Origin: a virus
Lineage: Duplodnaviria; Heunggongvirae; Uroviricota; Caudoviricetes
IMG/VR virus record: IMGVR_UViG_2617270963_000012
Length of the DNA stretch: 14,754 nt
Reading direction: 5' to 3' (one strand)
The position numbers were made by a program, and so were the translations under genes. The notes below the pieces were generated by a model. It had not been told where the DNA came from. It worked only from the letters and a program-made list of their open reading frames with translations, and made no database searches. How positions within the stretch are numbered: the first letter of the stretch is position 1; each line of letters opens with the position of its first letter. Positions 9,535 through 9,916 of this stretch are shown one piece after another.

Positions 9535-9828
9535 TTAGCTGCTGTCTTTTTTATATAGCTCTTTGAGCGTATCAAAGACAATTTTCTTAACCATATCAGA
9601 TTGTTGTTCTGCCATACGCTCTGCATCGTCAATGTAAACTGATGCAGAGCTTTGTTTAGCCAATGATTCTTCAATCGCTGCAATTATCTCTGAGTTCAGA
9701 GACCTGTTATTCATCTTCGCACGCTGTTTAATTTTCGCGTGGAGTTCATGCGGAAGTCTCAAGTGAAACTGCGCCTCGTCGTATTTGCTGTACATCCTTG
9801 ATGCCTCACCAGTTGGGTGGAATGGCAT
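9535..9828 (-). CDS. mnt: Mnt-like ribbon-helix-helix transcriptional repressor
   Basis: C-terminus DAERMAEQQSDMVKKIVFDTLKELYKK matches the recalled P22 Mnt C-terminus (DAERLADEQSELVKKMVFDTLKDLYKK). The N-terminal region FHLRLPHELHAKIKQRAKMNNRSLNSEIIAAIEESL is a beta-strand/helix/helix RHH fold. The true start is probably the internal ATG at 9795 (86 aa, with GAGG 8 nt upstream) rather than 9828. Confidence 0.85.
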   Translation of the reverse strand: MPFHPTGEASRMYSKYDEAQFHLRLPHELHAKIKQRAKMNNRSLNSEIIAAIEESLAKQSSASVYIDDAERMAEQQSDMVKKIVFDTLKELYKKDSS

Positions 9829-9868
9829 CGTAACCTACTGGATAAATACTCAATAGTACCATTTCGGT

Positions 9869-9891
9869 ATGCAATCACATCATGGTTGCAT
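9869..9891. promoter_or_regulatory. Inverted repeat ATGCAA-N11-TTGCAT in the mnt/tailspike divergent intergenic region; candidate operator
   Basis: Perfect 6-bp inverted arms (atgcaa 9869-9874, ttgcat 9886-9891) between the divergently oriented mnt-like and tailspike starts. It does not resemble the P22 Omnt sequence as I recall it. Confidence 0.3.
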
Positions 9892-9916
9892 CATATCATT
9901 CGTCTGGAGCAATGAA

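What the first reader, a model, noticed from the sequence alone, without database searches (positions are those of the whole stretch)
9535..9916. Orphan Mnt-like repressor with no arc/ant, directly divergent from the tailspike gene
In P22 the immI region between gene 16 and gene 9 contains mnt transcribed leftward and arc-ant transcribed rightward, with Mnt repressing Pant. Here a clear Mnt homologue is present but only about 90-120 bp separate its start from the tailspike ATG, leaving no room for arc or ant. An orphan Mnt could still autoregulate, could modulate transcription entering the tailspike gene, or could give trans-acting immunity by silencing ant on superinfecting P22-like phages. 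The ATGCAA-N11-TTGCAT inverted repeat at 9869-9891 is a candidate operator but differs from the P22 Omnt as I recall it, suggesting a different DNA specificity.
Basis: partly seen in the sequence, partly recalled or inferred. Interest (0 to 1): 0.55.

Follow-up and report, generated by a model that had tools for sequence, protein, structure and literature searches.

The report
Orphan Mnt repressor beside phage tailspike
A P22-like prophage carries an intact Mnt-type repressor gene with no antirepressor to control, next to the tailspike gene; this layout is common, conserved and already described in related phages, so it is ordinary, though its purpose is still unknown.

Summary
Positions 9535-9795 (- strand) encode an 86-aa Mnt-family repressor: an Arc-like ribbon-helix-helix domain plus the Mnt tetramerisation domain, 49% identical to P22 Mnt. 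Its start lies 121 bp from the tailspike ATG (9917). arc, ant, sar and a Pant-like promoter are absent, and there are no deletion scars.

The layout is not unusual. The same arrangement occurs in viable phages Sf101 and IME10, in 161 of 5426 complete E. coli genomes, and in 161 of 166 loci sampled for this Mnt type. "mnt-only ant morons" are already published for phages L, ST64T and ST104.

It sits where other P22-like phages have a + strand leader hairpin.

The better operator candidate is AGTACCATTTCGGTATG (9855-9871). It lies in the same register as P22 Omnt, abuts a Pmnt-like -35, and its sequence changes along with the beta-strand residues across three specificity classes.

The DNA-binding domain is under strong purifying selection (dN/dS about 0.04), so this is not a decaying remnant. 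Most likely it is an autoregulated repressor cassette. Any role beyond autoregulation is inferred, not shown. The tailspike gene in this window is a pseudogene.

The parts
9535..9795 (-). mnt homologue, 86 aa (MYSKYDEAQFHLRLP...). The mechanical ORF extends to an upstream in-frame ATG at 9828 (97 aa).
   Evidence: PGAP calls the 86-aa form in a relative whose mnt-tailspike region is 99.8% identical. The N-terminal extension stops early or is out of frame in Buttiauxella L094, phage L and Gally. dN/dS is about 0.04 over the first 45 codons against VSe13/JEP4-type alleles.
9855..9871 (.). Predicted Mnt operator AGTACCATTTCGGTATG (core TACC-N5-GGTA; class consensus RTACC-N-TTT-N-GGTAY).
   Evidence: It aligns column for column with P22 Omnt, directly after the shared CTCAAT. 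The arms are at least 97% conserved over 87 distinct control regions while the flanks diverge. It is a perfect palindrome, GTACCATTTTGGTAC, in Buttiauxella. It is degraded in Citrobacter L096, where mnt carries a stop codon. It is the only exact match in the window and in the whole Sf101 genome. Binding has not been tested.
9849..9854 (-). Pmnt-like -35 hexamer (TTGAGT on the - strand).
   Evidence: It aligns with the annotated P22 Pmnt -35 TTGAGA. TTG is kept in all classes.
9827..9832 (-). Pmnt-like -10 hexamer (TACGAT on the - strand). The spacer is 15 bp here and 17 bp in most relatives.
   Evidence: It aligns with the P22 Pmnt -10 TATCAT. The TA..AT positions are kept in every class (TATGAT, TAAGAT, TACGAT). 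This is the best or second-best leftward promoter score in all seven control regions scored.
9800..9829 (.). Inverted repeat GATGCC ... GGCATC enclosing CACC..GGTG. It overlaps the Pmnt -10 and the mnt ribosome-binding region. Function unknown.
   Evidence: I9. It is conserved in both orphan classes but absent from P22. As RNA it folds at -12.7 kcal/mol, z = -1.2, which is not significant.
9869..9891 (+). Probably a hairpin in the tailspike mRNA leader, not the Mnt operator.
   Evidence: Other leader subtypes carry different hairpins at the same place, with G.U wobbles that pair only on the + strand. L092 has ATTCAAT..ATTGAAT at this position.
9917..11536 (+). Tailspike gene, inactivated. There is a TAA at codon 24 (9986-9988) and a deletion/frameshift of about 160 bp near 11446.
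   Evidence: The Head_binding domain PF09008 scores 6.4e-35.
7448..9445 (+). Homologue of P22 gene 16 (DNA transfer / ejection protein), the last late gene before the mnt cassette.
   Evidence: The collinear genes in Sf101, ET665 and GF66.2 are annotated as DNA transfer / lytic transglycosylase proteins.

Best explanation
The region is a self-contained, autoregulated Mnt-type repressor cassette: the mnt gene, its own leftward promoter and a single palindromic operator. It sits at the usual "ant moron" site of P22-like phages, between the gene-16 homologue and the tailspike gene.

The protein is an Mnt-family ribbon-helix-helix tetramer of a distinct DNA-specificity class. Its beta-strand reads Q9-F-H11-L-R13 where P22 has H6-F-N8-F-R10.

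Its predicted site is AGTACCATTTCGGTATG (9855-9871). This site abuts the -35 of the Pmnt-equivalent promoter (TTGAGT, 15-bp spacer, TACGAT) exactly as Omnt does in P22. The other immI parts (Pant, Oarc, arc, sar, ant) are not there.

Shown here: family membership; the layout; its age and spread; purifying selection on the DNA-binding domain; and co-variation of the beta-strand with the palindrome.

Inferred: Mnt is made from the prophage, binds this site and regulates its own promoter.

Most speculative: the selected benefit is a trans or roadblock effect at the same operator class. That operator is always 46-75 bp upstream of a tailspike start, so the effect would fall on the phage's own or on incoming related genomes. 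It would not be control of an antirepressor.
For: Family membership: Pfam Arc plus Repressor_Mnt, PDB 1mnt and 1qey, 49% identity to P22 Mnt.

Same register as P22: MAFFT places the window's palindrome, -35 and -10 in the columns of the annotated P22 Omnt and Pmnt.

Three specificity classes, each with its own palindrome at that position:
- H-F-N-F-R with AGGTCCACGGTGGACCT, always accompanied by arc and ant (P22, epsilon34, UPF_BP1, Pluralibacter).
- Q-F-N-L-R with AAGACCACnGTGGTCT, always orphan (L, ST160, Gally, 720R6, Proteus and Providencia phages).
- Q-F-H-L-R with RTACCnTTTnGGTAY, always orphan.

In 161 of 166 loci of the window's class, a tailspike-type start lies 121-137 bp from the mnt ATG.

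Selection: the ribbon-helix-helix domain shows 17-21 synonymous against 8 non-synonymous differences, dN/dS about 0.04. The C-terminal domain and the tailspike leader are shuffled by recombination, while the DNA-binding domain and the palindrome stay together.

The homologous Pmnt is the best or second-best leftward promoter in all seven control regions scored. Rightward scores are at most 6.3, against 15.5 for P22 Pant.

Viable phages Sf101, IME10, L, Gally and VSe13 share the layout.
Against: No binding, transcript or phenotype data exist for any orphan Mnt.

In this window and in one other lineage the Pmnt spacer is 15 bp, which normally gives a weak promoter.

The window's palindrome is imperfect: 4-bp arms, with the fifth position G/T.

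A repressor that controls only itself has no obvious selective value, so the cassette's real output is missing from this explanation.

The prophage in this window has a dead tailspike gene, so whatever the cassette does for a functional phage may be irrelevant here.
Confidence: 0.6

Rival explanations
1. Mnt bound at its operator, or at the 9869-9891 repeat, controls tailspike expression. It would do so by repressing a tailspike promoter, by blocking late-operon read-through into the tailspike gene, or by activating a weak promoter. This could act in cis, or in trans on superinfecting phages of the same operator class.
For: The operator is always 46-75 bp upstream of a tailspike-type start, while genes on the other side of mnt come and go. 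The diversification of specificity classes resembles that of immunity modules. In the window a TATCAT hexamer (9893-9898) lies about 30-35 bp from the operator centre. Published work suggests the P22 ant moron influences tailspike level (PMC2629481).
Against: No conserved rightward sigma-70 promoter is found; the best score is 5.7 in the window and at most 6.3 in relatives, none at a conserved position. Phages without any mnt (Sf6, HK620, the GF66.2 prophage) have the same kind of tailspike leader. Late transcription in P22-like phages is antiterminated and reads through the region (established knowledge, not tested here). The 9869-9891 repeat does not co-vary with the DNA-binding residues.
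Confidence: 0.2
2. Trans-acting secondary immunity: the orphan Mnt silences the antirepressor gene of incoming P22-like phages, protecting the prophage from induction.
For: This is what Mnt does for P22's own ant gene (established knowledge; annotation). The gene is intact and conserved.
Against: Among 166 loci of this specificity class and 90 phage records with Mnt homologues, none places this operator class next to arc or ant. The ant-bearing phages examined use other control sequences: P22, epsilon34 and UPF_BP1 have GGTCCAC..GTGGACC, CUS-3 has GCGTACC repeats, and Kapi1 also has a different control region. Antirepressor-like Rha/KilA genes behind mnt in JEP4-type loci have no such site near their promoter region.
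Confidence: 0.08
3. Non-functional remnant of a degraded immI region, kept only because the site tolerates insertions.
For: There is no arc, ant, sar or Pant. The promoter spacer is suboptimal at 15 bp. The literature leaves this possibility open for phage L (PMC8022706). The surrounding prophage is defective.
Against: dN/dS is about 0.04. The gene is intact in more than 160 loci across Escherichia, Shigella, Salmonella, Buttiauxella and Serratia. The palindrome arms are at least 97% conserved while the flanks diverge. Where mnt has a stop codon (Citrobacter L096) the palindrome has also decayed. There is no residual arc or ant sequence.
Confidence: 0.1

Closest known systems
Mnt repressor and the immI region of Salmonella phage P22 (mnt, Pmnt/Omnt, Pant/Oarc, arc, sar, ant)
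   Same: Same two-domain protein (49% identity). Same genome position between gene 16 and the tailspike gene, and same leftward orientation. The promoter hexamers and the palindrome are in the same register relative to the start codon: the operator centre is 68 bp from the ATG here and 66 bp in P22.
   Different: No Pant, Oarc, arc, sar or ant. The beta-strand is Q-F-H-L-R instead of H-F-N-F-R, and the palindrome is TACC-N5-GGTA instead of GGTCCAC-G-GTGGACC. A conserved GATGCC..GGCATC repeat replaces the Pant -35 region.
mnt-only "ant morons" of phages L, ST64T, ST104 and ST160 (Villafane et al. 2008, PMC2629481; Zaworski et al. 2020, PMC8022706)
   Same: An orphan mnt directly divergent from the tailspike gene. 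The control-region layout is shared, including GATGCC..GGCATC and a palindrome after CAAT.
   Different: Those phages belong to another specificity class (Q-F-N-L-R; AAGACCACnGTGGTCT). They also carry an extra small ORF (orf62) behind mnt, whereas the window has mnt alone.
Shigella phage Sf101 and coliphage IME10 (Lederbergvirus)
   Same: 97-98% identical over mnt, the 121-bp spacer and the tailspike start. They show that the arrangement exists in viable phages.
   Different: Their tailspike genes are not interrupted at codon 24 (K where the window has TAA). In Sf101 the gene is mislabelled "partition protein ATPase"; in IME10 it is not annotated at all.
Arc repressor of P22
   Same: Ribbon-helix-helix fold. 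The beta-strand Q-F-x-L-R resembles Arc's Q-F-N-L-R, and the arms are separated by 5 bp as in the TAGA-N5-TCTA operator of Arc.
   Different: Arc lacks the C-terminal tetramerisation coil and is encoded rightward, ahead of ant. The window's protein has the Mnt C-terminal domain (PF11423).

Membership tests
Mnt repressor family | N-terminal Arc-like ribbon-helix-helix DNA-binding domain | tested here: met
   PF03869 7.5e-15; PDB 1mnt 3.4e-19.
Mnt repressor family | C-terminal Mnt tetramerisation coiled coil | tested here: met
   PF11423 3.4e-14; PDB 1qey 1.7e-8.
Mnt repressor family | Encoded leftward between the gene-16 homologue and the tailspike gene of a P22-like genome | tested here: met
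   Gene order in the window compared with P22, Sf101 and ET665.
Mnt repressor family | Palindromic operator abutting the -35 of its own promoter | tested here: met
   Sequence and comparative evidence only: the palindrome 9855-9871 aligns with P22 Omnt and co-varies with the beta-strand class.
Mnt repressor family | Tetramer that binds the operator and regulates transcription | not testable with these tools
   Needs EMSA or footprinting and reporter assays.
Complete P22-type immI region | arc and ant genes downstream of a divergent promoter | tested here: not met
   Only 121 bp separate mnt from the tailspike ATG. tblastn with Arc finds nothing and with Ant only chance-level hits.
Complete P22-type immI region | sar antisense RNA | tested here: not met
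   No Rfam match in 9300-10100. The positive control in P22 gives RF00262 at 97.8 bits.
Complete P22-type immI region | Strong rightward promoter Pant overlapped by Omnt and Oarc | tested here: not met
   The best rightward score is 5.7, against 15.5 for P22 Pant with the same matrix. The tool's own scan finds none on the + strand.
mnt-only ant moron (phage L / ST64T type) | mnt present, arc and ant absent, and the tailspike start within about 150 bp of the mnt start | tested here: met
   The spacer is 121 bp in the window and 135-146 bp in L, ST160 and Gally.
mnt-only ant moron (phage L / ST64T type) | Same operator and beta-strand class as phage L (Q-F-N-L-R; AAGACCACnGTGGTCT) | tested here: not met
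   The window has Q-F-H-L-R and AGTACCATTTCGGTATG. It has the same architecture but belongs to a different specificity class.

The most novel reading that the evidence does not exclude
The orphan Mnt and its operator could form a second kind of immunity module aimed at the tailspike gene rather than at an antirepressor. Mnt made by a resident prophage would bind the operator that every phage of the same class carries just upstream of its tailspike start. That binding would lower tailspike expression, by roadblock or by promoter control, in superinfecting but otherwise hetero-immune relatives, cutting their yield of infectious particles. Such pressure would drive the observed split into specificity classes, each with a co-evolved operator.
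Probability: 0.12. Interest if true: 0.6.

Novelty: new member of a known kind. Interest (0 to 1): 0.3.

Why it matters
Orphan mnt genes in P22-like phages have been noted in print, but it was left open whether they are remnants or do something (PMC8022706). The comparison here points to function. The DNA-binding domain and a palindrome in the Omnt position are conserved together across several enterobacterial genera. They fall into specificity classes, and two of the three classes are never found with an antirepressor in the loci sampled.

This gives concrete, cheap experiments: a defined 17-bp site, defined promoter hexamers, and viable phages (Sf101, IME10) that carry the same cassette. If the cassette proves to act on tailspike expression or on incoming phages, it would add a small new piece to phage-phage competition. 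If it only regulates itself, it is a curiosity. For genome annotation, these genes are mislabelled "partition protein ATPase" in the RefSeq phage records examined here.

Tried and rejected
- Deletion scars. blastn and tblastn of the P22 immI region against the window find only the mnt coding sequence and the tailspike leader and N-terminus. Nothing from arc, sar, ant or the terminators is present.
- Second operators. The motif RTACC-N5-GGTAY with up to one mismatch occurs once in regulatory DNA in the window and in the full Sf101 genome. The extra hits are at chance level: one inside the gene-20 homologue of the window, and one 36 bp upstream of the Sf101 int gene. Recurrent one-mismatch sites in JEP4-type loci are not at promoter regions.
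Rejected for three reasons: it occurs at chance frequency, it is absent from loci with identical DNA-binding residues, and it shows a compensatory change in L092.
- Statistical support for that repeat as an RNA hairpin is weak. 96% of cells pair, but 20 of 500 shuffles do as well, and the folding z-score is -0.7. RNAalifold on the other leader types gives a small conserved stem with wobble exchanges. This is suggestive only.
- The tool-predicted leftward promoter CTGACA-17-AATGAT, overlapping the tailspike start, is not conserved in other leader types, so I treated it as chance.
- The 97-aa long ORF as the true gene. Rejected because the extension stops early or is out of frame in relatives.
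- Literature searches found no experiments on orphan Mnt proteins. I could not retrieve Casjens and Thuman-Commike 2011.

Full report
**What is there.** The window is the late-gene arm of a P22-like (Lederbergvirus) prophage. It runs through scaffold and coat genes, homologues of P22 genes 4, 10, 26, 14, 7, 20 and 16 (ending at 9445), a small leftward ORF, the tailspike gene (from 9917), and a leftward gtrA/gtrB/gtrC-like cluster.

The leftward ORF is 97 aa from the ATG at 9828. Similarity to P22 Mnt starts at the internal ATG at 9795. That start is preceded by a GGTGAGG Shine-Dalgarno whose GAGG core has the same spacing as the GGAG of P22 mnt. NCBI's PGAP annotation calls the 86-aa form in a relative whose mnt-tailspike region is 99.8% identical.

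The 86-aa protein matches Pfam Arc (7.5e-15) and Repressor_Mnt (3.4e-14). It matches the solved Mnt N-terminal domain (1mnt, 3.4e-19) and tetramerisation domain (1qey, 1.7e-8). It is 49% identical to P22 Mnt. The spacer to the tailspike ATG is 121 bp.

Arc has no tblastn hit in the window, and Ant and SieA give only chance-level hits. No Rfam family matches the region, although the same search recovers sar RNA in P22.

**How unusual it is.** It is not unusual.
- The mnt gene, the 121-bp spacer and the tailspike start are 97-98% identical in the viable phages Sf101 and IME10.
- The block occurs at 80% coverage or more in 161 of 5426 complete E. coli genomes.
- 228 IMG/VR viral contigs encode a relative of this Mnt.
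- Among 166 loci encoding this Mnt type, 161 have a tailspike-type start (M-S/T-D-I/T...) 121-137 bp from the mnt ATG. Three have too little flank to tell and two differ. None has arc or ant there.

The literature already describes this variable region as the "ant moron". It states that ST64T, ST104 and a Paratyphi prophage contain only mnt plus one unknown gene (PMC2629481). [quoted passage not shown]

**No recent deletion.** blastn of the window against the P22 immI region aligns only the mnt coding sequence and the tailspike leader and N-terminus. The control regions of the two orphan classes share features that P22 lacks, notably a GATGCC...GGCATC inverted repeat where P22 has the -35 of Pant. 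The orphan layout spans Escherichia, Shigella, Salmonella, Proteus, Providencia, Serratia and Buttiauxella. It is an old lineage, not a fresh scar.

**Where the operator probably is.** Aligning control regions anchored on the mnt start puts a palindrome from every class in the columns of the annotated P22 Omnt, directly after a shared C(T/A)CAAT. That shared motif is the reverse complement of the Pmnt -35. Three classes emerge:
- Beta-strand H-F-N-F-R with AGGTCCACGGTGGACCT. Members: P22, epsilon34, UPF_BP1 and a Pluralibacter prophage. All have arc and ant.
- Beta-strand Q-F-N-L-R with AAGACCACnGTGGTCT. Members: L, ST160, Gally, 720R6, a Proteus phage and a Providencia prophage. All are orphans.
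- Beta-strand Q-F-H-L-R with (A/C)GTACC(A/G)TTTnGGTA(T/C)G. Members: the window, Sf101, IME10, VSe13, JEP4 and about 160 contigs. All are orphans.

In the window the site is AGTACCATTTCGGTATG, 9855-9871. Its centre is 68 bp from the mnt ATG, against 66 bp in P22.

Over 87 distinct control regions of the window's class, the TACC and GGTA arms are at least 97% conserved while the sequence to their right is replaced wholesale. Buttiauxella has the perfect palindrome GTACCATTTTGGTAC. A Citrobacter copy whose mnt carries a stop codon has a decayed site.

From my own knowledge of the Sauer and Susskind work, the residues at the aligned beta-strand positions (Arg2, His6, Asn8, Arg10 in P22 Mnt) are the ones that read the operator. 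I did not check this in a paper here.

The site is the only exact match in the window and in the 38.7-kb Sf101 genome.

**Promoters.** I built a simple position-weight scan. It recovers the annotated P22 Pant (15.5) and Pmnt (13.1). In the window and in the six other control regions scored, the position homologous to Pmnt is the best or second-best leftward candidate. In the window it reads TTGAGT 9854-9849, a 15-bp spacer, and TACGAT 9832-9827. The TTG of the -35 and the TA..AT of the -10 are kept in every class.

The spacer is 17 bp in most relatives but 15 bp in the window's subtype, which should weaken the promoter.

No rightward candidate scores above 5.7 in the window or 6.3 in relatives, and none is positionally conserved. 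The strong Pant of P22 has no counterpart.

In two lineages (L094, L229) a second, stronger leftward promoter encloses the palindrome in its spacer. That arrangement would make Mnt a classical autorepressor there.

ATGCAATCA / TGGTTGCAT (9869-9891) is real, but four points count against it as the operator.
- A repeat of this quality arises in about 10% of shuffled spacers.
- Its right arm lies in the tailspike leader, and P22 has ccTTGCATctggagcaa before gene 9.
- Loci with identical DNA-binding residues have unrelated sequence at this place.
- L092, with the same beta-strand, has ATTCAAT...ATTGAAT, a change on both arms that keeps complementarity.

At the same place other leader types carry different small hairpins: CCGTAGC-cay-GCTGCGG as in P22 and L, CCGCAGC..GCTGTGG, and CGCATC..GATGTG. 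Their G.U wobbles pair only on the + strand.

Within the window's subtype, 96% of cells pair. Five single substitutions keep pairing by wobble or Watson-Crick and one breaks it. The shuffle control is only modestly exceeded (20 of 500), and the folding energy is unremarkable (z = -0.7).

My reading is that this is probably a leader hairpin of the late/tailspike mRNA. It is not the Mnt operator, and the evidence for the hairpin itself is only suggestive.

**Remnant or functional.** Between the window and VSe13/JEP4-type alleles, the first 45 codons differ by 17-21 synonymous but only 8 non-synonymous changes, giving dN/dS of about 0.04. Sixty distinct protein variants keep the ribbon-helix-helix domain almost unchanged, while at least four different C-terminal domains are recombined onto it. 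The DNA-binding domain and the palindrome stay together while the C-terminus and the tailspike leader are exchanged. This pattern is expected for a working repressor-operator pair and not for a decaying remnant.

**What it does.** Autoregulation is the only circuit the sequence supports directly. A repressor that regulates only itself lacks an obvious benefit, so something is missing.
- Tailspike promoter control: there is no rightward promoter to control.
- Silencing ant on incoming phages: no phage in the sample combines this operator class with arc or ant. The ant-bearing phages examined (P22, epsilon34, UPF_BP1, CUS-3, Kapi1) use other control sequences.

Two facts remain unexplained. The operator is always next to a tailspike start, and the family has split into specificity classes. 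These observations fit an effect on transcription entering the tailspike gene, in cis or on superinfecting relatives, but do not demonstrate it. I give that reading a low probability.

**State of this copy.** The tailspike gene in the window carries an in-frame TAA at codon 24, where all sampled relatives have lysine. It also has a deletion of about 160 bp with a frameshift near 11446, relative to the 596-aa tailspike of E. coli GF66.2 (97% identical up to that point). The prophage cannot make its own tailspike. Its mnt is nevertheless intact and identical to the commonest allele.

**Verdict.** The feature is a further member, in a different specificity class, of the already described mnt-only morons. 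The useful additions from this work are a better operator candidate, the promoter assignment, evidence against the remnant view, and the reinterpretation of the flagged inverted repeat.

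Noticed in passing
window 9917-11536 (TAA at 9986-9988; breakpoint near 11446): The tailspike gene is a pseudogene twice over. It has an in-frame ochre codon at codon 24, where all sampled relatives have lysine. It also has a deletion of about 160 bp with a frameshift that removes the last ~85 residues, relative to the 596-aa tailspike of E. 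coli GF66.2.
   Followed up: yes
window 9869-9891; P22 locus L004 5161-5177; loci L173-L252: A small + strand hairpin sits 25-30 nt upstream of the tailspike start in many P22-like phages. Its sequence differs between leader subtypes, and its G.U wobbles pair only on the + strand. It overlaps what the CUS-3 record calls a "boundary sequence". Its function is unknown.
   Followed up: partly
window 9800-9829: An inverted repeat GATGCC...GGCATC is conserved in both orphan Mnt classes and absent from P22. It overlaps the Pmnt -10 and the mnt ribosome-binding site. It contains the ATG of a short upstream ORF (MP-F/I/V-H...). That ORF is in frame with mnt here but stops early or is out of frame in relatives.
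   Followed up: partly
L013 2330-2869; also L059, L065, L074, L093: A 179-aa HNH endonuclease gene is inserted after about codon 5 of the tailspike start. It is followed by a second, HK620-type tailspike start. The mnt control region and leader are retained unchanged.
   Followed up: partly
Mnt residues about 46-86 (window 9535-9660): The C-terminal tetramerisation domain is mosaic. At least four different C-termini (P22-like, L-like, VSe13-like and the window's own) are joined to a nearly invariant ribbon-helix-helix domain. This implies recombination in the linker.
   Followed up: partly
RefSeq records of P22, Sf101, ST160, UPF_BP1: Mnt homologues are labelled "partition protein ATPase" in RefSeq phage records. 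For an 83-86-aa ribbon-helix-helix repressor this is an evident misannotation.
   Followed up: no
L006 (JEP4) 2770-5252; L095 1072-1860; L096 3808-4551: In many relatives of the window's Mnt class, Rha/KilA/antirepressor-like genes lie behind mnt and convergent with it. In JEP4 a C2-like repressor gene lies beyond them. No Mnt-type palindrome is near their promoter region. The window has nothing in this position (89 bp).
   Followed up: partly
L172 (Sf101) 18350-18364: A one-mismatch operator-like palindrome, GTACCAGATGTGTAC, lies 36 bp upstream of the integrase start. Its frequency is at chance level and it lacks the central TTT.
   Followed up: no
window 11689-14754 (- strand): A gtrA/gtrB/gtrC-like O-antigen modification cluster lies downstream of the tailspike gene. 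The 596-aa gtrC-position protein has no Pfam match. The 310-aa protein is a family-2 glycosyltransferase.
   Followed up: no
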